A DNA stretch of 64,000 nt from a virus. The translations under genes were made by a program, and so were the position numbers. The notes beneath the pieces are model-generated. The model had not been told where the DNA came from. It ran no database searches and saw only the letters and a program-made list of their open reading frames with translations. The stretch is taken from IMG/VR virus record IMGVR_UViG_3300045988_090963. The stretch is one strand, 5' to 3'. Every line of letters begins with the position of its first letter. Within the stretch, counting starts at the first letter, position 1. Shown here piece by piece: positions 20,397 to 61,867 of the stretch.

Positions 20397-21806
20397 ATGA
20401 CTAATGCTCAAATTATTTGGAAATACTTTAAAGGCAAAGGTTTTAGTGATTGCGGAATTGCCGGTTTAATGGGTAATCTTTATGCCGAAAGTGGTCTTAA
20501 TTCTATTAACTTATAGAACACCTATGAAAAAAAATTAAAAATGACCGACGCAGGATATACCTCCGCAGTTGATGATGGAAGGTATAAAAACTTTGTAAAA
20601 GATGGGGCGGGATATGGATTGGCTCAATGGACATTTTGGAGCAGAAAACAAAATTTGCTTTAGTTCTGTCAAAGTCGAGGTAAATCCATTGGAGATTTAA
20701 ATACTCAATTAGATTTTTTATATTAGGAGTTAATTACAAGTTTTTCTAGTTTAGTTAAAATTTTGATTTCTGCCACTTCTGTCACAGAAGCCTCTACCGC
20801 AGTATTACTCTAGTTTGAAAGACCTTCAGACTAGAGTTTTTCTATGCAACAAAAGAGAGCTAATTATGGTCAATAGTATTATAATAAATTTGCTAACATT
20901 TCAAATGTAATTGAAGGAGGTAATAAAATGAAATATAGCGATAGCAATAAACCACTTCAATGTATGATGACAAATAGCACTTGCTATAAACAAACACGCA
21001 CCATGCAAGTTAAAGGAATCTTATGGCATAGTACTGGTGCAAATAATCCTAATTTAAAAAGATATGTATAGCCAAGCGATAATGATCCTAACTACACCAG
21101 TTTAATAAATAAATTAGGAAAAAATACTAGCAAGAATGACTGGAATCATATATCTGTTCAAGCTGGATTAAACTGTTGGATTGGTAAATTGGCTGATGGA
21201 ACAGTAACAACAGTATAGACAATGCCATGGAATTATCGTCCTTGGGGATGCGGTTCTGGGTCTAAAGGTTCTTGTAATAATGGATGGATTCAGTTTGAAA
21301 TTTGCGAAGATGGATTAAATGATGCAAATTATTTTAACAAAATTTATGAAGAGGCTTGTCAAATTACTGCTTATTTATGTAAAATGTATAACATAAATCC
21401 ATTGGGAACCACTACTTTAAATGGTATCACCGTTCCGACTATTTTATGTCATGCTGATAGTCACAAGCTAGGATTAGGATCTAATCATGCAGATGTAAAC
21501 CATTGGTTTCCAAAATTTGGGAAAAGCATGGAAACCGCAAGAACAGATGTTTATAATTTAATGTCAAATATCTAGGAGGATGATGAAGATATGACTGACG
21601 AGAAATTCGCTGAACTTATGAATACTTGGCTTACTAATAAAGCTAATGAAAAAGAAACTTGGGGCACCGATAATCTTGAATGGGCTAAAGCGAATGGGAT
21701 TATGGCTGGAGACAGTGCTGGAAGAATGATGCCAAATAAATTCTGTACTAGATTAGAAACTGTAACTATGTTAAGAAGATTGGCTGAAAAGCTGGGTTTA
21801 AAATGA
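20397..21806 (+). CDS. multi-module endolysin, 9 in-frame TAG
   Basis: Three modules in one frame with no TAA/TGA until 21804: (1) Phage_lysozyme2-like N-module (GIAGLMGNLYAESG...GYGLAQWTF..R...QLDFL..FERP...RANYGQ.YY); (2) Amidase_2/PGRP module (ILWHSTGA...CHADSHKLG); (3) C-terminal SLH-like cell-wall-binding module (W..DNLEWAKANGIMAGDSAGRMMPNKFCTRLETVTMLRRL). Strong internal RBS and ATG at 20929 could give a second product (amidase-SLH). Confidence 0.55.
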
Positions 21807-29040: not shown

Positions 29041-29952
29041 ATGATTATAGGGTTATTATTAATTACTATAATCGGGTTAATAATTTATATCTATTATCTC
29101 AAGAAACAAGAGCATCAAATAATTGAAGTTAATATAGATAATTAGAGGAAAAACTCAGAGATAGAATAGGAAATAAAACATAATAGAGAAGTATTATCTA
29201 ATATAAAAGAAAATATATACTCTGAAAATGAAATTCTTTCTTCTCTAGTAAAATCTTAGGAAGAAATGCGGGAAAATGCACAAAAGCAAGCTGATGAGGC
29301 ATACTAGATTCGCATTTCCGCACTTTTAAAATCCTATAAAGAAAAAGAAAATGAGCTTACTATGACTTTTGATGCTAAAAGTCAAGATTTATCAAATAAA
29401 ATTTCTATCGAATCCAGTAAATTAGCGGATTTACAAGCTAAACAACTTGCTTATATTTAGGCTCAACAAAGATAGGAAGAGATTGACTCTAATCAAGATT
29501 ACTATCGTTTAGCTCTTGATGAAATTGATATAAATGATATTACATTATTGCGTGAGTTGCAACCTAGATTTGTCAAAAAAGAAAGCATAGATAAGTTAAT
29601 ATGGGAAGTGTATTATAAACCAGCTTATGATATATTAACAGCTCGGTTATTCCCAAAAGCAATTAAATATTGTGGGATTTATAAGATAACTGATTTGACC
29701 ACTGGGAAATCCTATATAGGATAGTCAGTTGATATAAAAGAACGTTTTAGACAACATATTAAATCTGCTTTAACTTACGGAAAAGCAACCAATAAACTAT
29801 ATTCTACCATGTAGAAATCTGGAGTTCATAATTTTACCTTTGAGATTTTAGAAGAAGTTTCAAGGGAAAATTTAAATGAGAGAGAAACTTATTGGATTGA
29901 GTTTTATAAAACGAAAGATTTTGGTTTAAATACTACTCGCGGAGGATCTTAA
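29041..29952 (+). CDS. GIY-YIG nuclease-domain protein with N-terminal TM helix and coiled coil; 8 in-frame TAG
   Basis: C-terminal GIYKITDLTTGKSYIG[TAG]SVDIKERFRQH...ERETYWIEFYK is a GIY-YIG core; the TAG sits at the conserved Gln of YIGQS/T. Confidence 0.5.
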
Positions 29953-37021: not shown

Positions 37022-38773
37022 TTGGAATATTCATTAATTAACCCAAGAAATTAGGATTATAGTGCTTTAGAGTAGGTATTAGTTAATAGAGGTATTAAAT
37101 ATGGTGATATATAGCATTATTTAACAGTATCAGAAAAAGATAATTTATCTCCCTTACTTCTTAATAATATTGAAAGCGCTGCTAAGCTAATTATTAAGCA
37201 CATTTTAAAAGACAACTCTTATATTTATGTCTAGGTAGATAGCGACTGCGATGGTTACACCTCTTCTGCATTATTGCTAAATTATCTTCATGCGCAGTTT
37301 CCCTCTGCAATTAACAAGTTTGTTTATAACTTCCATTCTGGTAAAATTCATGGAATAAAACCAGAATTAATCCCCGATAATATTTCTCTTGTTATTGCAC
37401 CGGATTCAAGCTCTAACGACTATCAAGAGCATGAAGAATTGGCTAATCGCGGAATTGATGTATTAGTTATAGACCATCACTTAGCTGATAAAATATCTGA
37501 ATACGCCTGTGTTGTTAATAATCAGTTATGCGATTATCCAACAAAATCGTTATCTGGTGTAGGAGTAGTTTATAAATTGTGTTAGTATATGGATAGTATT
37601 TGCGGAACTGCCTATGCGGACAATTACCTTGATATTGTAGCCACCGGTCTTGTAGGAGATATGATGGATATTAGAGATTTTGAAACTCATTATCTTATTC
37701 AATAGGGGCTACAGAGGTCAAGTCTCCGCAATCCTTTTATTAAAGGTATGGCTGATAAAAATGCTTACTAGTTAGGCAGAGGAGATTTATCTCCTATTGG
37801 AGTAGCGTTTTATATTGTTCCTCTTGTTAATGCCATTACTCGTATGGGTACTCAAGATGAAAAGTAGATTTTATTTGAAAGTATGCTTGAATGGAAAGCA
37901 TATGATCTTATTCCTTCTACTAAACGAGGATGTAAAGGGCAAGAGGAAACTAGATTAGAGCAAGCATTAAGAGTTTGCACTAATGTTAAGAATCGTTAGA
38001 CTAGAACTAGAGATGCCGAAGTTGAACAAATAGAGAATATTATTCAAGAAAAAAATCTATTATAGCATAAACTTTTAGTAATTAAACTAGAAGATATGTA
38101 GGTTGATAGAGGTATTACTGGTTTAATTGCTAATGAATTAATGAGTAAGTATAAGCGCCCCGTTATTCTCTTATCAAAGACTGTAAACAATAAACAAGAT
38201 GCTTGGGAAGGATCAGCTAGAGGATACGAAAAGTCTAAATTAAATGATTTTAGACAATTTGTAAGAGATTCAAATTTAGTCTTTTTAGCTGAGGGGCACG
38301 CAAATGCTTTTGGCTTTGGCATTTATGAAAAAGATTTTGAAGATTTTATTACATGGTCAGACAATCAATTAAAAGATATAGAATTTTCGCCAAGCTATAA
38401 GGTAGATTTTATTTACTCTATGTCAGATATTAATTCTAAAGATATATTAGAACTAGGCAATTCTAAGTATCTTTGGGGATAGAATATCGACGAACCGCTA
38501 ATTGCGGTAGAAAATGTTGCAGTAACAAATGACATGATTAGTCTTATGTCACGAGACAAGAATCCTACTTTGAAGATTCAATTACCAAATGGAGTTACTT
38601 GCATCAAGTTTAAATCAAGCGAAGAGGAGCTAGAAGATTTATCTAGCGAATTAGGTTGCGTGAGTATAAATTTGATTGGTAAACCAGAAGTAAATAGATA
38701 CTTCGGTAGTGTGACACCACAAATTATTATTACAGATTATGAAATTATAAGTAGATAGAAGTATTACTTTTAA
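37022..38773 (+). CDS. recJ: RecJ-like DHH/DHHA1 phosphoesterase (ssDNA exonuclease), 13 in-frame TAG, TTG start
   Basis: DHH motifs VDSDCDGYTS, IAPDSS, VLVIDHH; DHHA1 motif GHANAFGFG; the frame is open from 37019 to TAA 38771 only if TAG is sense. RBS AAGGAGAG before TTG 37022. Confidence 0.6.
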
Positions 38774-49714: not shown

Positions 49715-50281
49715 ATGGGTGTATATTTTGAGAAAGTGAGTCGCTTTAATGACATTGATCTACCTATTCCAACCCGCGCGACCGCCAATTCCGCAGGTTA
49801 TGATTTCGTAGTCGCAGAAGATACAGTTCTACCTCCAATGAATTTTTTAACTTCTAAAATTCAAGACCATATTTTTGAAAAAGATAGTGACAAGGATTTT
49901 TATGGATTTGTGAGCCCTTTTACTCTTGATGATATGGCCAATCTTACTAAAAAATTAAAGTCTAAGATTACTCTTGTATCAACAGGAATGAAATGTCATT
50001 TAAATCCTGGTCAATATCTTGAATTAAGTGTTCGCAGTTCTACTCCTCTTAAACATTGGATTATTTGCGGAAATAGCGTTGGTATTATTGATGCCGATTA
50101 TTGTGATAATCCAGATAATGAAGGAGAGATCTTTTTCCAGCTTGTTAATTTATCTCCTTTTGCTATTCAGTTAAAGCGTGGAGATAAAATTGGACAAGGA
50201 ATTATTAAGAGTTATCAAATTACTGATGACGATAATGCAACTGGAGAAAGACTCGGTGGATTCGGAAGCACATCTAAATGA
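49715..50281 (+). CDS. dut: dUTPase (trimeric Dut family)
   Basis: RATANSAGYD and GIIDADY motifs. Confidence 0.6.
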   Translation: MGVYFEKVSRFNDIDLPIPTRATANSAGYDFVVAEDTVLPPMNFLTSKIQDHIFEKDSDKDFYGFVSPFTLDDMANLTKKLKSKITLVSTGMKCHLNPGQYLELSVRSSTPLKHWIICGNSVGIIDADYCDNPDNEGEIFFQLVNLSPFAIQLKRGDKIGQGIIKSYQITDDDNATGERLGGFGSTSK

Positions 50282-50750
50282 GTAATCTATTATCACTCGA
50301 TTAGAGTTCGAAGATTACCGGATATGCGGTCTTTGAAGATAATAAGTTAAAAACTTTTGGTAAATTTGCTGTTGAAGATAATAATATAGATACTAGATTA
50401 GTAAAAATAAGATAGAAGATTAAAGATCTTATTGAATAGTATCATATAGATGAAGTAGTTTTTGAAGATATATAGTAGTAGAATAATATTTCTAATAATG
50501 TTTAGACTTTTAAGATTTTAGCAGAAGTATATGGGGTAGTTTCTGAATTACTAGAACAAGAAAAAATTCCCCATTCTTCTATTTTAGCAGTAACATGGAA
50601 ATCTTTATTGGGTATAAAAGGAAAAACTCGACCAGAGTAGAAAAAAAATGCTCAGAATTATGTTTTTTATAATTATGGGGAAAAACCCACACAGGATGAA
50701 AGTGACGCTGTTTGTATCGGCCTTGCGCATATTAAATAGCATCAATGCGC
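50277..50750 (+). CDS. ruvC: RuvC-like Holliday-junction resolvase, 9 in-frame TAG including three consecutive
   Basis: LSLD.SSKITGYAVFE (cf. LGIDPGSRVTGYGV), VVFEDI (cf. FAIEQVF), ESDAVCIGLAH (cf. ADAADALAIAITH). Confidence 0.55.
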
Positions 50751-50772
50751 TTGGTAATATTGGTCTAAATAA

Positions 50773-54842: not shown

Positions 54843-55550
<708 letters not shown>

Positions 55551-56250: not shown

Positions 56251-56889
56251 TTAATTAATAATACCTCCAGTAGAAGTAATTGTAGCGGGACCAATAATTT
56301 TATATGCTATAACTTGATAATTATTATTTATTAATATAACTCCCAAACTTTCATATGCAGACTGAGGAGTAATTTTAAGTCCTGAAGAAGAACCGGCATT
56401 TATAGTTATAATACTATTTTTTATCACTTTATAATTATTTTTCTACACTACCCATACTGACATTGGCGCATTTTCATATTCTATTATTACAGTACATCCA
56501 CTTATACCACTCAATGATTCAAATATAATATCCACCGTTTCTATAGGGGTTTCTGTTGTAATCTATCCTATCTTATCTGCCATAGTTGAAAAACTATCGG
56601 TCGCCGCAGTTTCTACTCCTTTGTCAGTGACTGCGGTCGCTATTAGGGTTTTGCCCTCACTGACATCGGTAAAAAGCTCATCAATAGCTGATTGAACATT
56701 AGTGGCTTTCATACTTGAAGTTTCATTATTATATTCTATTGATGATGCAGTAAGATTTTCATTATCTTCTTCATCAAATTCAATAGTATAAGGTCCTAAC
56801 CCTAATGTTTCTCCCATTTCTGCGCTACCGCCTCCTGGTACGGTAATAGCATTTTGGTTTTTAACCTATCCAGTTAAAATACATTCCAT
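56251..56889 (-). CDS. tail fibre / receptor-binding protein N-terminal module (3 TAG)
   Basis: TNVQSAIDELF motif typical of siphophage fibre N-termini; RBS AAAGGAGAA. Confidence 0.5.
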
Positions 56890-57012
56890 AGATATTTTCT
56901 CCTTTCATCTAAAACCTTTAAAAAAGTACACTTTACTGAACTTGGTCAACTATATATAATTTATCTACTCTTTCTTTCATATATATTTGAAAAGAGTAAG
57001 ATACTCACTTTT

Positions 57013-57048
57013 GGGAAAAGGGTTTCTTACCCTTTTCCCAATTTTTTG
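57013..57048. terminator. bidirectional terminator GGGAAAAGGGTTTCTTACCCTTTTCCC
   Basis: Hairpin with T-runs on both sides, between divergent units. It is flanked by a 14-bp inverted repeat AAAAAGTACACTTT (56920-56934 / 57078-57094). Confidence 0.55.
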
Positions 57049-57214
57049 TTATCTAGACAGAAGAAGTATTTTTCCTGTTAAAAAGTGTACTTTTTCTCGG
57101 AAATTGTTAATGACTTTCTAAAAGACTGGAGCGAAGATCGCTTCCATCCTCGACCTTCTATCTAGTAATTTAGATTTGTTTATAGCAATAGCTAGATAGA
57201 AGGAGGTAAACAAT

Positions 57215-58972
57215 TTGCCTAAATGTATTTTAGCTGAGTAGGGTGGAAAAGGTGGAGGCTCTCTTTCTCTTGTAAAAATTGAAGTAACCACTCCCCCTAA
57301 TAAAACGAGCTATCTTGCTGGTGACACATTTAATCCTGCTGGAATGGTAGTTACCGCATCTTACGGCATGGATGGTGTTATTGTAACAACAGCAGAAGTA
57401 ACTGGATATCAAGTTACTCCAAGTCCTTTAACAGACGGAGTTACTGAAGTAACTATTACTTATTCAGAACTCGGTGAAACTTGTCAAACTGCATAGAAGG
57501 TAACTGTTATTCATAAACTTCTTAGTATTTAGGTTACTACTAACCCAACTAAGATGACCTATGAATATGGCGACACCCTTCAAACAACAGGAATGGTAGT
57601 TACAGCGAGTTACTCTGATAGTAAAAGCGCGGCTGTCACAGGTTATACGTGCTCACCAACATCCTTAACTACAGTTGGCAGCTAGCAAATTACTGTTTCT
57701 TATACAGAGAATGAAGTAACTCAATCTGCGAAATTTACGGTAACTGTTGAGCGTAAATCTGTCGCTAAACCAACCTGGAAAAGTAATCTTACCTATACAG
57801 GTAATAGTCAATCAGTAAGTGGAACTTCTTATTGGAATAATTTCAATACCACTTATATGACGATTGGTGGAACTACTTCCGCTACTAACGCAGGAACTTA
57901 TACAGCTACATTTACTCTAAAGAGCAACTATAGATGGGCTGATAAGACAACCGATAATCTTGATGTAAACTGGGTTATTAATAAAGCCGCGGGTAGTTTA
58001 ACCGTAAATCCAACTTCTGTTGCTCTTGATGGAGATAATTATAGTGCTGGCGTTAAAGTTACTATTACTCGCGCGGGAGATGGAGCTATTAGCTATACTC
58101 CAACTAGTGTTACTGGTCTTACCCTCTCTTTAAGTGGTAATATTCTTACTATTAAAGGTGATGGCAGTACAGCTATTTCTTCTACCACGATTACTATTAA
58201 AGTTGCGGCCGGAACTAACCATACTGCTCCAGGTAACAAGACTGTTACAGTAACAGCAAGCTATTGGGAGTGGGGTTCTGAAACTGCTACTGGTGATGCT
58301 AAGTGGTGGGCTGGATTAAAGACCTGGGCAGCTAAGGCTTCTTCCAGTGAAAGAAAGAAATGTGTAGGTAAAAAGAAACTTGTAAGTCTTTCTAGTGCGG
58401 TACTTGGTGCCAACGCTGCTACAATGATTTGTATTGGTGCTGATTAGGATGGAACTGGAACATTAACTTTCCAGACTGCGGGAACTTTACCTAACAGTAC
58501 ATCATTTGGTAGTAACGCGTTATGGAATGGTTCAACCGCTCAATCCTTGTGCAATGATTTTGGTAATAGATGTAGCGCAACCGCTTCTATTAAATCTGTT
58601 ACTAAGAAGACAAGTTCTGCTAGTAATGGTAATTAGAATAATACTGCGGATGTTCAAACAACTGCAAAATGTTGGCTACCTTCTGAATGTGAGATGGGAT
58701 TTACTAGCTCTAGCGGCTATGCTAGTTCTTATTAGGAGTGGACTGTTGGAGGAAGTTAGACGGCCTATAGTTACTATACAAGCAACTCTACTAGAGTTAA
58801 ATACCAGATGAACGCCAATGGTTCGTTGACGAATTCAACGATGTGGTATTGGGAACGGTCCCGTGGCTACAACTACTCGGGCTACGTTTGCGGTGTCCAC
58901 GGCGATGGGTCTGCGAGCTACGGCTACTACTACCACAGCTACGGGCTCGCGCCGGCTTTCGTCATTGGATAA
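57215..58972 (+). CDS. DGR target protein: Ig-like (Big_3-type) repeats plus C-terminal C-type-lectin/DUF1566-like variable domain; 8 in-frame TAG; TTG start
   Basis: RBS GAAGGAGG 8 nt before the TTG; repeated PNKTSYLAGDTFNPAGMVVTASY...VT motifs; the C-terminus CWLPSECEM...WYWERSRGYNYSGYVCGVHGDGSASYGYYYHSYGLAPAFVIG carries the VR. Confidence 0.6.
58857..58955 (+). repeat. DGR variable repeat (VR)
   Basis: 99-bp near-copy of 59580-59678; all 22 mismatches fall where the TR has A, mostly in AAC codons. Confidence 0.8.
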
Positions 58973-59053
58973 TACAGCAAAATAACAATTCGGGACAGTT
59001 AAGGTTAAATTGTCCAATAAAAAAATTATATATTCAAGTGAGGGAAATTTTAA

Positions 59054-59392
59054 ATGTCTGTAAAAGTAAAGGATAGACACCTATCAAAACAAGACTGTCT
59101 TTATAAAGCCCGTGAATTGGTTGGCTACATTTTAGTCTTAACTCGTCCTAGAGAATTTGATAAGGATGGAAAACAAATCTGCAAACCTGGACTGCTTGGA
59201 GAGGGTCAACCTCTTCAAGCGTTCGGGTACGATATAATTAAATGCGGAAAGGGTATACACGCTTGCTGTTATGAGGCGTGTAGGATAAACTTAAAAGATA
59301 AAGAAACCCTTACAAAAAGAAATGAATATCACAATAGAGCGATTGAATATTGTGATAGTATATTTCGACAAATCGACCTATGTATTTATTAG
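59054..59392 (+). CDS. avd: Avd-like DGR accessory protein (112 aa; plus 52 aa basic extension to 59549 if the terminal TAG is read through)
   Basis: Small protein between VR and TR, as in BPP-1 mtd-avd-TR-brt; the basic tail KKKRRSFEHLARLTKKVK... follows the TAG. Confidence 0.5.
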   Translation: MSVKVKDRHLSKQDCLYKARELVGYILVLTRPREFDKDGKQICKPGLLGEGQPLQAFGYDIIKCGKGIHACCYEACRINLKDKETLTKRNEYHNRAIEYCDSIFRQIDLCIY

Positions 59393-59579
59393 TATGCTCA
59401 GAACAGCAAAAAGAAAAGAAGATCTTTTGAACATCTAGCTAGATTGACTAAGAAAGTAAAAGAATCAATCCAAGATAGAAAAAATAGAGATAAACTTATA
59501 GTCGAGCATAGATATTCGGCTCCTAAAACCCATAGGAGAGGTCGATAATATTTTTCTGCGGTTAAGTTCTGTATCTTTC

Positions 59580-59678
59580 GGTCCCGTAACTACAACAACT
59601 CGAACAACGTTTGCAATGTCAACAACGATGGATCTGCGAACAACAACAACTACAACAACAGCAACGGGCTCGCGCCGG
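59580..59678 (+). repeat. DGR template repeat (TR)
   Basis: Adenine-rich (AAC-rich) template; 3' GC-rich GGGCTCGCGCCGG shared with the VR (IMH-like). Confidence 0.8.
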
Positions 59679-59987
59679 ATTAGATGGAGCTATCATGTTG
59701 CGAGTTAAGCTGCGGAGCAGCGCAAACGAGCAACGCCTAAATAGTACCCCGGAGTATATTATTATCCATCTAATTAAGGTTTACTCTGGATTGCACTCAC
59801 TATGTGGGGAAGAGATTGAGAGACCATTAAAGAGCTTTGCTCTACAACTATCGAATAATATACTATAGGTAGATCTGCCTTTTCATCTAAGGAGAACTTA
59901 ACCATTTCACTGAAAAAGTGGATAAAGTAAGACTGTAGACGTGGAGCTCGAGTAGCTACCACTATAGCTACATGATAAGGAGAAAGT

Positions 59988-61204
59988 ATGTCTGAAATAA
60001 ATCAAGATACTACTTTCGAGCGTTTTTGTAGTTTTGACACTATGTATGATGCGTCTTATAAGGTATGCCGAAACGTTCGATGGAAAGATAGTACAATTAA
60101 TTTTGAAGAGAATAGGATAGAAACAATTTTAAAAACAGAAGCTGATCTGCGAGCGTGTGAATACGAATAGCTTGTGTTTAGTTGTTTTTCGATAATCGAA
60201 CGAGGCAAACCAAGAGATATAAGAGCGTGTCATATCAACGACAGACTGGTACAAAATGCGTTATGTGAACAAGTTTTATTACCAGAATTAACTCCTAGAT
60301 TTATCTACGATAATTGTGCTACTTTAAGAGGAAAAGGAATAGACTTTGCTTTAAAAAGAGTAAAGAAACATCTTCAACAAGCTCATAGAGAATATGGATT
60401 AGGAAAAGATTTTTATGGGTTAAGAATTGATATTCAAAAATATTTTGATTCTATTGACCATAAATCTTTAAAGAAAGCGGCTAAACGTTTGATAAAAGAT
60501 AAAAGAATTTATCAACTATGCTGTTATTTAATAGATACATTTTCTTTTAAGCTAACAAAAGATTCCTCTCCCATACCAGGAAAAGATTGTTATATTAGTA
60601 AACGGCACAAATACACGAGAATTAGTACCACTAATTTTAAGCCTGGCCGCAAATACTATGAATATGATAATAAAAGTCTTGGATTAGGAAGTCAAACATC
60701 ACAATTATTCGCATTGCTAGCATTGAACGAAATTGACCACTTCATCAAAGAAGAGTTACATATTAAGTATTATGGTCGTTATATGGATGATTTATATTTA
60801 TTCCACAATGACAGTCAATACTTAGCCGAATGTGAAAAGAGAATAGAAGTTCGCTTAAATAAGCAAGGATTAAAGATGAATAAGAAAAAGACTACTATTA
60901 CTAGAATCTCTCCTATTCATGCGGACGGCAAACGTCACGCTCCATTAAAATACTTAAAGTGGAACTTTTATCTCACAGACACTAATCATATAATACAAAT
61001 TCCTTTTAAAAAGAAAGTGGCTCATTAGCGCAGAAAGTTAAAGAAAATGCAAGCGCTATGGTTAGAGGGTAAAATTTCAACAGATGAAATTTAGAAATCC
61101 TATCAAGGTTGGAGGGCACATATTTCTAAAGGAACTTGTTTTTATATAATTCAAGATATGGACAATTATTTTCGTTCATTATTTAAAGGAGTTGAAATAA
61201 AGTA
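59988..61204 (+). CDS. DGR reverse transcriptase (3 in-frame TAG)
   Basis: NDRLVQNALCE (bRT KDRLVQHALCN), SQLFA (bRT SQLFANVYG), YMDDLYLF (bRT YMDDIVVL); the C-terminal GWRAHISKGTC (bRT SWSGHAQWADT) follows two TAGs. Fragments 59988.. and 60174.. are in the same frame. Confidence 0.8.
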
Positions 61205-61867
61205 ATGTATATTCTATTAAATAGAGAGAATGTAGTAGTTGATATTCTTTCAGAAGCACGTTACATTAAACTGCAATCCTCAAATGGTATTGTCGTTGCC
61301 TGCGAGGAAGAAGAGGGAACTGGGGTTATCGGCTCAAATGGAGATACACATTATACTCTAATTAAAGCCGATGTATTAAATCAATCTAATGCTGTAAAAG
61401 TATTAGAGATAGAAACAATTCCATCAGATGTTACTCCTAATTATTCAATATATAATCAAGAAGATGGAACATTCACTTCTGATTTAGATTAGGCAAAGTA
61501 TGACAAACAAGAGGAAAACAAGAAACTATTCGCAGAGTATCTTGCTACCCACCCACTAACTTGGGTTGATGGAAAAGAATATGGAATTACGTAGGAGGAC
61601 CAGTCTGAGATTAGCTTAAATCTCAATCAATATCAAGTCGCTCTCGCGGCTGAAGTAGAAAATCCTACGCTTGAGTGGCACGCTCGACACGAAGAATGTG
61701 TGCCATGGAGTTTAGAGCAATTATCCGCTCTAAGTTTAGCTATTTTAAATGTGGTATATCCCAAATATCATTTAATGCAAGAATATAAAACTTAGATATT
61801 TGAAGCTGATTCAATAGATAAATTAAAAGCTATTGAATTAAACTATGAAGATACCGACAGTGAGTAA
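61205..61867 (+). CDS. hypothetical protein (tail-fibre-assembly/DUF4376-like?), 3 TAG
   Basis: ATG right after the RT stop; open to TAA 61865 with TAG as sense. Confidence 0.4.

What the first reader, a model, noticed from the sequence alone, without database searches (positions are those of the whole stretch)
57215..61204. Complete diversity-generating retroelement with the canonical target-avd-TR-RT layout, itself dependent on TAG read-through
VR (58857-58955) and TR (59580-59678) are 99-bp repeats differing at 22 positions. Every difference has A in the TR and G, T or C in the VR, and 16 of 17 variable codons are AAC in the TR. This is the adenine-specific mutagenesis signature.
The VR is the last about 33 codons of a 585-aa Ig-like-repeat protein ending in a CLec/DUF1566-type fold. 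A small Avd-like ORF, a 300-nt spacer and a YMDD reverse transcriptase closely matching the Bordetella phage bRT motifs follow.
The GC-rich 3' block GGGCTCGCGCCGG (IMH-like) is shared by VR and TR, and a hairpin follows the VR (about 58992-59015).
Target, Avd (terminal TAG) and RT (3 TAGs) all need the suppressor, so hypervariation would be coupled to the late, recoded phase.
Basis: seen in the sequence. Interest (0 to 1): 0.75.

Follow-up and report, generated by a model that had tools for sequence, protein, structure and literature searches.

The report
Active DGR in an amber-recoded phage
This is a complete and evidently active diversity-generating retroelement that hypermutates the tip of a tail-fibre-like protein in a ~146-kb gut phage that reads TAG as glutamine; it is a well-supported example of a kind already described.

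Summary
The finding is real. All 20 are adenines in the TR (chance 6e-12). The order is target, accessory gene, TR, 306-nt spacer, RT.

In 28 related viral contigs every VR is different, and 496 of 500 VR/TR mismatches fall on TR adenines. Rare non-A changes in a TR are copied into that genome's own VR, so the element has been active recently.

The target ends in a C-type-lectin fold (Pfam DUF6273, not DUF1566). The accessory protein has no sequence match to Avd, but it models as an Avd-like basic four-helix bundle.

TAG means Gln: relatives have CAA or CAG at the same sites. The target has 8 in-frame TAGs, the RT 3, and the accessory gene one internal TAG (not a terminal one). The suppressor tRNA(CUA) is not in the window; in near-identical genomes it lies about 3 kb beyond the left edge.

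New here: three covariation-supported RNA duplexes around the TR that match by position the BPP-1 priming duplex, Avd-binding stem-loop and stop duplex.

DGRs with TAG-interrupted RTs in recoded gut phages are already published, so this is a new member of a known kind. Coupling to a "late phase" is untested.

The parts
57215..58972 (+). DGR target gene: 585-aa tail-fibre-like protein with two Big_3 Ig-like domains, further beta-rich repeats and a C-terminal C-type-lectin/DUF6273 domain. It has 8 in-frame TAG (Gln) codons.
   Evidence: ORF and TAG positions. Pfam Big_3 (6.5e-14) and DUF6273 (2.7e-10). phrog_37900. The start at TTG 57215 follows an AGGAGG, and homologs begin with the same M-x-KCIL-x-GQ motif.
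58424..58969 (+). C-type-lectin-fold (DUF6273) domain of the target, residues 404-585. The VR encodes its last beta-strands.
58856..58955 (+). Variable repeat (VR), covering codons 548-581 of the target. There are 14 amino-acid-changing variable codons in this copy, plus one silent change.
   Evidence: VRs of close relatives are 79-84% identical while the flanks are 97-99% identical.
58943..58955 (+). GC-rich block GGGCTCGCGCCGG at the 3' end of the VR (IMH-like). VR and TR diverge immediately after it.
   Evidence: It is conserved in all relatives. TR substitutions inside the block are mirrored in the same genome's VR.
58993..59015 (+). Weak AT-rich hairpin downstream of the VR (8-bp stem with one G.T pair, 7-nt loop). 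It is probably not the canonical DGR target hairpin.
   Evidence: Criteria from PMC3240598: 7-10 bp GC-rich stem, 4-nt GRNA loop, 4-34 bp from the VR. None of these is met.
59054..59548 (+). Accessory gene: 164-aa basic (pI 9.7) four-helix-bundle protein that resembles Avd in fold. It has one internal TAG at codon 113 (59390). Helix 4 and the most basic segment (pI 11.3) lie after that TAG.
59559..59569 (+). 5' strand (GGTTAAGTTCT) of a long-range RNA duplex that brackets the TR. By position it corresponds to the BPP-1 cPRT-stop duplex.
   Evidence: It pairs with 59893-59903. 97% of cells are paired against 34-59% for slid controls, and 4 of 11 pairs are compensatory across 6 lineages. BPP-1 element.
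59579..59678 (+). Template repeat (TR). It is non-coding and has 35 adenines, with 14 AAC and 1 AAT in the VR reading frame.
   Evidence: It is 98-100% conserved among close relatives.
59679..59688 (+). TR-proximal strand (AUUAGAUGGA) of a perfect 10-bp TR:spacer duplex. It begins exactly where VR/TR homology ends. Proposed template:primer duplex.
   Evidence: It pairs with 59765-59774 and forms helix H1 of the consensus structure. L029 has compensatory changes. L027/L028 have an alternative partner, UUAGAUAA/UUAUCUAA. BPP-1 analog.
59689..59745 (+). Compound stem-loop (H2-H4) just downstream of the TR, with many compensatory changes. By position it corresponds to the Avd-binding stem-loop.
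   Evidence: BPP-1 element.
59765..59779 (+). Spacer strand (UCCAUCUAAUUAAGG) of the TR:spacer duplex. The predicted priming nucleotide lies around 59774-59777.
   Evidence: The priming position is an inference.
59893..59903 (+). Spacer strand (AGAACUUAACC) of the TR-bracketing duplex.
59934..59972 (+). 3' stem-loop of the spacer (H8/H9), supported by covariation.
59988..61205 (+). DGR reverse transcriptase, 405 aa, with TAG (Gln) at codons 61, 347 and 369. It has YMDD at residue 265, GxxxSQ at residue 234, and a ~50-aa insertion relative to bRT.
56921..57095 (+). Context: a conserved upstream element. It has a promoter-like site (56932-56960) and a strong terminator (57011-57041), flanked by a unique perfect 14-bp inverted repeat. 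It may be a leader or control region for the cassette.
   Evidence: Its function is not established.

Best explanation
The region is a functional diversity-generating retroelement of a large (~146 kb) gut phage that decodes TAG as glutamine and is related to phages of Bacillota.

Proposed mechanism:
1. A transcript spanning the end of the accessory gene, the TR and the 306-nt spacer folds into a structured DGR RNA.
2. A duplex between 59559-59569 and 59893-59903 brackets the TR.
3. A 10-bp duplex between 59679-59688 and 59765-59774 abuts the last TR nucleotide shared with the VR.
4. The RT, together with the Avd-like four-helix-bundle protein, binds this RNA and primes cDNA synthesis at the GC-rich 3' end of the TR (around G59677/78).
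5. The RT copies the TR faithfully except at adenines.
6. The mutagenised cDNA replaces the VR (58856-58955) at the 3' end of the target gene.

The effect is to randomise up to 15 AAY codons, about 4e17 possible protein variants. [quoted passage not shown]

The first TAG truncates the target at codon 9 and the RT at codon 61, and it removes helix 4 of the accessory protein. None of the three can therefore be made without the phage's tRNA(CUA).

Shown here: the anatomy, the adenine specificity, natural VR diversification with a constant TR, TR-to-VR transfer of non-A changes, the protein folds, the RNA covariation, and TAG = Gln.

Inferred: the priming site, the roles of the RNA elements, receptor binding, and any timing of activity.
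For: - Repeat and A-only mismatches: (P = 6e-12).
- AAY codon register.
- Family-wide pattern: 28 of 28 loci have distinct VRs, and 496 of 500 mismatches fall on TR adenines.
- Close relatives: TR 98-100% identical, flanks 97-99%, VR 79-84%. 31 of 36 A columns vary against 3 of 67 non-A columns. TR substitutions C>G and G>A are mirrored in the same genome's VR.
- RT: RVT_1 and phrog_1423. The best solved-structure match is BPP-1 bRT 8ub7. GxxxSQ and YMDD are present.
- Target: DUF6273 and C-type-lectin fold. DUF6273 is a known C-lectin-like DGR target domain (PMC10743442).
- RNA: 57 pairs, 97.4% paired against 33-51% for slid controls, 25 compensatory pairs, 0 of 500 shuffles as good.
- Recoding: ORF coverage is 0.74 under the standard code and 0.93 with TAG recoded. 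TAG aligns with CAA/CAG. tRNA(CUA) lies 2.8-3.6 kb left of the window in 99-100% identical relatives.
Against: - No direct evidence of retrohoming. No reads or population data were available, so activity is inferred from differences between assemblies.
- The accessory protein has no detectable sequence relationship to Avd/PF05635. Four-helix bundles also give many non-specific structural matches.
- The canonical GC-rich GRNA-loop hairpin downstream of the VR is absent.
- The structure model used a close homolog (P0092), not the window's own sequence.
- Helices H1 and H5 are almost invariant, so they have little covariation support of their own.
- The suppressor tRNA was found in relatives, not in the window.
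Confidence: 0.9

Rival explanations
1. The TAG codons in the DGR genes are only a passive by-product of genome-wide TAG>Gln recoding. They do not form a dedicated switch that times hypermutation. The DGR is made whenever other recoded genes are made, and that set is not strictly 'late'.
For: - TAG makes up about 31% of Gln-type codons across 32 TAG-containing genes. These include RecJ-like (13 TAGs), RuvC-like (9) and a GIY-YIG-like gene (8).
- The RT and accessory gene are TAG-poor by comparison (0.17 and 0.12).
- The accessory TAG at codon 113 is GAA in 23 relatives and TAG only in the close group.
Against: - RT TAGs at codons 61 and 347 are shared by 20 and 29 of 36 loci across about 76% protein identity, which could reflect retention.
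- All three proteins are truncated early without suppression.
Confidence: 0.55
2. The cassette is a recently inactivated relic: the VR/TR signature is inherited from past activity and the element no longer works in this genome.
For: Activity in this particular genome was not observed. The canonical target hairpin is missing.
Against: - All ORFs are intact under code 15.
- There are zero non-A mismatches here, so no decay has occurred.
- Genomes 97-99% identical in the flanks all carry different VRs.
- The RNA elements are intact.
Confidence: 0.06
3. The 164-aa ORF between VR and TR is not a functional Avd equivalent. It is an unrelated small basic protein that happens to sit there. The RT would then work alone or with another factor.
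Against: - BPP-1 Avd aligns over 103 of 109 residues at rmsd 2.0 A.
- The protein is basic, like Avd.
- Its position is the same as avd in BPP-1, and it co-occurs with the RT in the related loci.
Confidence: 0.12
4. The TAGs are genuine stops, so the RT and target are pseudogenes or fragmented ORFs in a standard-code genome.
For: No suppressor tRNA lies within the 64-kb window.
Against: - TAG positions carry CAA/CAG in relatives, and the reverse also holds.
- Sequence downstream of each TAG is conserved and needed for the fold.
- Coding coverage rises from 0.74 to 0.93 with TAG recoded.
- Near-identical genomes carry tRNA(CUA).
Confidence: 0.01

Closest known systems
Bordetella phage BPP-1 DGR (mtd-avd-TR-brt)
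   Same: - Same gene order.
- The VR is at the 3' end of a C-type-lectin-fold receptor-binding protein.
- Adenine-only mutagenesis centred on AAC codons.
- A GC-rich element at the VR/TR 3' end.
- An RT with GxxxSQ and YMDD; bRT is the best solved-structure match.
- A basic four-helix-bundle accessory protein.
- Three RNA elements in matching positions: a TR:spacer duplex at the initiation site, a stem-loop just after the TR, and a duplex bracketing the TR.
   Different: - The RT is only distantly related (E 5e-15) and has a ~50-aa insertion.
- The accessory protein is not detectably homologous in sequence. It is 164 aa, whereas the solved Avd chains are 109-122 residues, and it has a conserved beta-hairpin insert.
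- The spacer is about 306 nt.
- VR/TR homology stops right at the GC block, so there is no extended IMH/IMH*.
- There is no GC-rich GRNA hairpin after the VR.
- The target domain is DUF6273 preceded by Ig-like repeats.
- All genes need TAG>Gln suppression.
DGRs of TAG-recoded persisting gut phages (Shen et al., bioRxiv 10.1101/2023.08.07.552389)
   Same: The RT has multiple in-frame TAGs, lies next to a recoded tail-protein target, and the VR is near the target's 3' end and mutates over time.
   Different: I could not test whether this lineage is one of their three phages. The one RT sequence printed in their methods is different. They did not report the accessory protein or the RNA elements in the text I read.
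[quoted passage not shown]
   Same: Amber suppression in DGR RT genes, a GxxxSQ motif, and C-type-lectin tail-fibre targets, some with Ig-like domains.
   Different: This phage is not crAss-like. Its Pol III alpha is about 40% identical to Enterococcus and Bacillus SPbeta-type phages, whereas Zeta crAss phages use PolA or PolB. Most Zeta cassettes lack an Avd gene; this one has an accessory gene.
DUF6273 C-lectin DGR targets (tentaclins and Mtd-like targets of gut and Faecalibacterium phages, PMC10743442)
   Same: A DUF6273 domain with a C-type-lectin fold carries the VR, combined with Ig-like domains.
   Different: In tentaclins the C-lectin domain and VR are N-terminal. Here they are C-terminal, after the Ig-like repeats.

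Membership tests
Diversity-generating retroelement (DGR) | TR/VR repeat pair whose differences are confined to TR adenines | tested here: met
   20 of 20 mismatches here fall on TR adenines (P = 6e-12). In 28 relatives the figure is 496 of 500.
Diversity-generating retroelement (DGR) | Reverse transcriptase of the DGR type (YxDD catalytic motif and GxxxSQ in motif 4) encoded next to the TR | tested here: met
   RVT_1 1.3e-16 and phrog_1423 2e-84. The best PDB sequence match is BPP-1 bRT. YMDD at residue 265 and GSQTSQ at residue 234. No curated DGR-RT HMM was available; NCBIfam hits to group II, Drt and retron models are all far below their cut-offs.
Diversity-generating retroelement (DGR) | VR located at the 3' end of a protein-coding target, with variable sites in the first two positions of AAY codons | tested here: met
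   The VR covers codons 548-581 of 585. The 15 variable codons are 13 AAC, 1 AAT and 1 silent GGA.
Diversity-generating retroelement (DGR) | TR invariant while the VR diversifies; information flows from TR to VR | tested here: met
   TR 98-100% identical, VR 79-84%. Non-A TR substitutions are mirrored in the same genome's VR. This compares assemblies and is not an experiment.
Diversity-generating retroelement (DGR) | IMH-type GC-rich element at the VR 3' end plus a downstream GC-rich hairpin with a GRNA tetraloop | tested here: inconclusive
   The GC block is present and conserved. The only hairpin is AT-rich, has a 7-nt loop, lies 37 bp away, is weak and is not maintained in relatives. Criteria from PMC3240598.
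Diversity-generating retroelement (DGR) | Structured RNA around the TR that supports cis-priming (TR:Sp duplex, Avd-binding stem-loop, stop duplex) | tested here: met
   Covariation-supported helices in matching positions, compared with the BPP-1 RNP. Their function is not tested.
Diversity-generating retroelement (DGR) | Mutagenic cDNA synthesis and retrohoming demonstrated | not testable with these tools
   This needs population sequencing or biochemistry.
Avd / PF05635 (23S rRNA-IVS protein) accessory family | Sequence match to the family HMM | tested here: not met
   No Pfam, NCBIfam or PHROG hit. A profile search against PDB sequences found nothing. A profile search against 1.84e9 representative proteins found 28 hits, none with a Pfam domain.
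Avd / PF05635 (23S rRNA-IVS protein) accessory family | Four-helix-bundle fold resembling Avd | tested here: met
Avd / PF05635 (23S rRNA-IVS protein) accessory family | Strongly basic, and encoded between the target and the TR | tested here: met
   pI 9.7, with 38 K+R against 20 D+E. Position.
Avd / PF05635 (23S rRNA-IVS protein) accessory family | Pentameric barrel that binds the RT and the DGR RNA | not testable with these tools
   No multimer modelling or biochemistry was available.
C-type-lectin-fold DGR variable proteins (Mtd/TvpA-like; Pfam DUF6273 subgroup) | C-lectin fold carrying the VR | tested here: met
   Only Big_3 and DUF6273 pass their cut-offs.
TAG>Gln (code 15-type) recoded phage | In-frame TAGs in conserved genes that align with Gln codons in relatives | tested here: met
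   RT codon 61: TAG 20 / CAG 13 / CAA 3. Codon 347: 29 / 4 / 3. Codon 369: 9 / 20 / 5, plus 2 ATG. Target codons 9, 157 and 411 are CAA in about 20 loci. GADQDG column.
TAG>Gln (code 15-type) recoded phage | Phage-encoded suppressor tRNA(CUA) | tested here: inconclusive
   None in the window. It is present 2.8-3.6 kb left of the window edge in relatives that are 99-100% identical, and also in more distant relatives. The feature is met for the lineage but not shown for this exact genome.
Crassvirales (Zeta crAss-like phages with DGRs) | crAss-type replication module (PolA or PolB) | tested here: not met
   The window encodes a Pol III alpha closest to Enterococcus and Bacillus SPbeta-type phages. 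Zeta crAss phages list PolA or PolB. Hallmark capsid and terminase genes were not examined.

The most novel reading that the evidence does not exclude
The amber codons act as a real translational gate on hypermutation. RT codons 61 and 347 are retained as TAG across a family with about 76% protein identity. Every DGR protein is truncated without tRNA(CUA). Mutagenic retrohoming would therefore be licensed only once the phage's suppressor is expressed. The conserved promoter-terminator leader upstream of the target (56921-57095) may add a second, antitermination-type layer. This would be a new regulatory principle for DGRs. It would come together with a previously unannotated Avd-like accessory family and a DGR RNA whose three core duplexes are conserved from a proteobacterial phage to a phage related to those of Bacillota.
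Probability: 0.3. Interest if true: 0.6.

Novelty: new member of a known kind. Interest (0 to 1): 0.38.

Why it matters
This is a clean, well-documented case of a DGR that standard annotation would miss. Under code 11 the RT, target and accessory genes all fragment, and the accessory protein has no family model.

It provides three useful things:
1. A natural-variation data set: 28 distinct VRs against near-constant TRs.
2. A narrow, unannotated family of Avd-like proteins that DGR finders could add.
3. Covariation evidence that the three RNA elements seen in the BPP-1 cryo-EM structure recur in a distant phage lineage. The boundary of VR/TR homology coincides to the nucleotide with the start of the proposed template:primer duplex.

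The headline idea, a DGR that depends on amber suppression, is already in the literature. The value is confirmation and mechanistic detail rather than discovery.

Tried and rejected
- **Invertible promoter.** A perfect 14-bp inverted repeat (56921-34 / 57082-95) and a nearby DNA invertase gene suggested a phase-variable switch in front of the target. All 30 relatives have the segment in the same orientation, so I found no evidence for this.
- **crAss-like identity.** Suggested by the literature hit and rejected on polymerase type.
- **Second VR or remote target in the window.** None at up to 20 non-A mismatches.
- **Known RNA families.** None at gathering thresholds in the window. Only sub-threshold noise appears in the cassette.
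- **Sequence link from the accessory protein to Avd.** Pfam, NCBIfam, PHROGs, a PDB profile search and a 1.84e9-protein profile search were all negative.
- **Modelling the window's own target domain.** I used the near-identical homolog P0092 instead.
- **Post-VR hairpin as a DGR target hairpin.** Weak, and not conserved as a structure.
- **blastn of the cassette against GenBank phages.** No meaningful hit.
- **Whole-region RNAduplex for the bracketing helix.** Uninformative. My first pair count was mis-registered by two columns and was corrected.
- **Local hairpin H6 (59888-91 / 59897-900) from RNAalifold.** It has no double-sided covariation, and the long-range duplex explains that sequence better.
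- **Small-RNA reading of the upstream element.** No covariation.

Full report

Yes. The repeat finder reports a 103-nt direct repeat, 58856-58958 / 59579-59681, with an offset of 723. Within the true homology (58856-58955 / 59579-59678, 100 nt) there are 20 mismatches. All 20 have A in the downstream copy: 12 A>G, 6 A>T and 2 A>C. The TR has 35 A in 100 nt, so the chance that 20 randomly placed mismatches all fall on A is 6e-12.

A 21st difference, at 58956 (VR C / TR A), is identical in every relative, so it marks the end of the homology and is not mutagenesis.

In the target's reading frame there are 15 variable codons: 13 AAC, 1 AAT and 1 silent GGA>GGG. The TR holds 14 AAC and 1 AAT in frame. 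Since each NNC/NNT set encodes 15 amino acids and no stop, this gives about 15^15 = 4.4e17 possible variants.

**2. The genes**

With TAG translated, three uninterrupted ORFs appear.

- The target runs from 57215 to 58972. It starts at TTG after an AGGAGG, is 585 aa, and has TAGs at codons 9, 94, 106, 157, 411, 474, 507 and 515.
- The accessory ORF runs from 59054 to 59548. It is 164 aa, has one TAG at codon 113, and ends on TAA. This is not a "terminal TAG".
- The RT runs from 59988 to 61205. It is 405 aa with TAGs at codons 61, 347 and 369.

The TR is non-coding and begins 30 nt after the accessory stop codon. The order target / accessory / TR / spacer / RT is that of BPP-1 (established knowledge).

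**3. The recoding is real and means Gln**

Coverage by ORFs of at least 100 aa rises from 0.74 to 0.93 when TAG is read through. At the RT's three TAG sites, 36 related loci carry only TAG, CAG or CAA, apart from two ATGs at codon 369. Target codons 9, 157 and 411 are CAA in about 20 relatives. Where relatives have TAG, the window most often has Q. In protein alignments the TAG in GAD-X-DG lines up with a conserved Q. The accessory TAG lines up with Q or E, and the next 51 residues are conserved.

The window itself has no tRNA (ARAGORN; Rfam). Relatives that are 99-100% identical in the window's first large gene carry a tRNA with anticodon CUA. It lies 2.8-3.6 kb to the left of the window's edge.

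**4. Evidence of activity from related genomes**

A scan of viral contigs with the RT gave 36 loci on contigs of up to 148 kb.

In five close relatives the TR is 98-100% identical to the window's. Four of them have flanks 97-99% identical to the window's. Their VRs are only 79-84% identical. Across the six VRs, 31 of 36 TR-adenine columns vary, against 3 of 67 other columns. The few non-A substitutions in a TR are found in that genome's own VR: C>G in the GC block of L003/4/5/31, and G>A in L005. This is what one-way TR-to-VR transfer predicts.

Across all 28 loci that include the VR, every VR is unique. 496 of 500 VR/TR mismatches lie on TR adenines. Only one VR and one TR exist in the window.

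**5. The proteins**

*RT.* It matches Pfam RVT_1 (1.3e-16) and phrog_1423 (2e-84). Its best match among solved structures is BPP-1 bRT (8ub7, E 5e-15). Residues 163-229 have no counterpart in bRT, a ~50-aa insertion. YMDD and the DGR-type GxxxSQ motif are present. "Closely matching" overstates the similarity.

*Accessory protein.* It has no hit in Pfam, PHROGs or NCBIfam, and no hit in PDB sequences even with a 32-sequence profile. A profile search of 1.84 billion representative proteins found only 28 relatives, none with a Pfam domain.

The protein is basic (pI 9.7). The 52 residues after the TAG, which include helix 4, are the most basic part (pI 11.3). It behaves like Avd in fold, charge and position, but membership by sequence is not met.

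**6.

I aligned the TR 3' end plus spacer from 26 loci. RNAalifold predicts 57 pairs, 25 of them with compensatory changes. With controls, 97.4% of cells are paired against 33-51% when partners are slid. There are 25 compensatory pairs against 3-7 for slid partners. None of 500 shuffles does as well.

- A perfect 10-bp duplex joins 59679-59688 and 59765-59774. It starts exactly where VR/TR homology ends. L029 has compensatory changes. L027/L028, which lack about 120 nt of spacer, pair the same TR-proximal sequence with a nearer partner (UUAGAUAA/UUAUCUAA, read).
- A compound stem-loop occupies 59689-59745.
- A 3' stem-loop occupies 59934-59972.
- An 11-bp duplex joins 59559-59569 (upstream of the TR) and 59893-59903 (in the spacer). 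97% of cells are paired against 34-59% for slid partners. 4 of 11 pairs are compensatory across six lineages.

In the BPP-1 ribonucleoprotein, a TR:Sp duplex places the priming nucleotide next to the initiating G. An Avd-binding stem-loop lies just after the TR. A "cPRT stop" duplex pairs sequences on either side of the TR (10.1101/2023.10.23.563531). The three elements here match these by position.

From this I infer that cDNA starts at about G59677/78, and that the priming nucleotide lies near 59774-59777. A predicted helix that would sequester the RT's Shine-Dalgarno (59879-87 / 59974-82) is invariant and so remains unproven.

**7. The hairpin**

It lies 37 bp past the homology. It is weak: -3.8 kcal/mol, z -1.7, with 11 of 200 shuffles as good. 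Relatives conserve the sequence but not the pairing. Known DGR target hairpins have 7-10 bp GC-rich stems and GRNA tetraloops, and lie 4-34 bp from the VR (PMC3240598). This feature is not met.

**8. What phage is this?**

It is not crAss-like. The window encodes Pol III alpha, DnaB, a GyrA/B-like topoisomerase, NrdD, NAMPT and PhoH. The Pol III alpha is about 40% identical to those of ~130-140 kb Enterococcus and Bacillus SPbeta-type phages. The related contigs reach 146 kb.

The cassette sits among tail-fibre-like genes, with a DNA invertase gene nearby. TAG-rich genes are not confined to a late block: RecJ-like has 13, RuvC-like 9, a GIY-YIG-like gene 8 and the lysin 9.

**9. Comparison with what is known, and novelty**

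DGRs whose RT carries multiple in-frame TAGs, next to a recoded tail-protein target whose VR mutates over years, were reported in three recoded gut phages (10.1101/2023.08.07.552389). Amber-interrupted DGR RTs were also reported in Zeta crAss-like phages (PMC12386605). The headline of the finding is therefore known, and this is a new member of a known kind.

The incremental points are the unannotated Avd-like family, the covariation-supported RNA elements, and the nucleotide-exact match between the homology boundary and the duplex start.

**10. The "late-phase coupling" idea**

Without suppression the target stops at codon 9, the RT at codon 61, and the accessory protein loses helix 4. Dependence on the suppressor is therefore solid. 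Whether this is a selected timing device is open.

- For: RT TAGs 61 and 347 are shared by 20 and 29 of 36 loci.
- Against: the accessory TAG is recent, with GAA in 23 relatives. The RT and accessory genes are TAG-poor relative to their neighbours, and recoded genes include replication and repair functions.

**Verdict**

Confidence that this is a functional DGR dependent on amber suppression is 0.9. Interest is moderate to low (0.38), because the phenomenon is published.

Noticed in passing
window 56921-57095: A conserved element lies about 170 nt upstream of the DGR target. It has a promoter-like site (TTTACT-17-TATAAT, 56932-56960) followed by a strong terminator (13-bp stem plus T-run, 57011-57041). 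A perfect 14-bp inverted repeat, AAAAAGTACACTTT, flanks it and occurs nowhere else in the window. It is 100% conserved in close relatives and about 80% in distant ones, always in the same orientation. There is no covariation and no Rfam match. It could be a short RNA or a lambda pR'-tR'-like antitermination leader for the cassette.
   Followed up: partly
window 54843-55514 (- strand): A DNA-invertase-type serine recombinase gene (phrog_125, 4.5e-53; 6 TAGs) sits among tail-fibre-like genes near the DGR target. I found no inversion of the nearby inverted-repeat-flanked segment in 30 relatives.
   Followed up: partly
window 56858-56885 and 57222-57249; genes 56251-56889 (-) and 57215-58972 (+): The DGR target and the divergently transcribed fibre-like gene share an N-terminal motif (MECILTGQ / (M)PKCILAEQ). 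Database homologs have it too (MSVKCILTGQ, MSLKCILQGQ). This produces a 28-nt inverted repeat across the intergenic region and suggests a common N-terminal anchor for interchangeable fibre proteins.
   Followed up: no
window 60474-60674 (RT residues 163-229): The RT has a ~50-aa insertion with no counterpart in BPP-1 bRT, between the regions that align to bRT residues 10-161 and 178-246. The relatives match over nearly the full RT length, so they presumably share it.
   Followed up: no
window 37022-38773, 50278-50757, 29041-29952, 20397-21806: TAG-rich genes are interspersed with TAG-free ones and are not only structural or lysis genes: RecJ-like (13 TAGs), RuvC-like resolvase (9), a GIY-YIG-like gene (8) and the lysin (9). 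Pol III alpha, the topoisomerase subunits and NAMPT have none. Recoding here is a mosaic rather than a simple early/late split.
   Followed up: partly
L046 6691-6766; L050 5943-6018 (2.8-3.6 kb left of the window's position 1): The suppressor tRNA(CUA) sits in a small tRNA cluster (Ser-UGA, Sup-CUA, Leu-CAA, Cys-GCA) in near-identical relatives. It has a U1.U72 mismatch and G73, which from general knowledge is consistent with Gln identity. It is not similar to the tRNA-Gln(CUG) of a related contig.
   Followed up: partly
L027 4796-4985 and L028 (spacer region): Two related loci lack about 120 nt of the TR-RT spacer yet keep the stem-loop after the TR, the bracketing duplex and an alternative TR:spacer duplex. 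This defines a minimal version of the DGR RNA.
   Followed up: partly
L017 and L036: In these two related loci the TR, accessory gene and RT are present, but no VR was found upstream at 6 or fewer non-adenine mismatches. The target may be diverged, may carry indels, or may have been replaced.
   Followed up: no
window 6809-8497 (- strand): A 562-codon open frame with 5 TAGs lies antisense to well-formed + strand genes. Its low-complexity, Leu/Ile/Ser-rich translation looks spurious.
   Followed up: no
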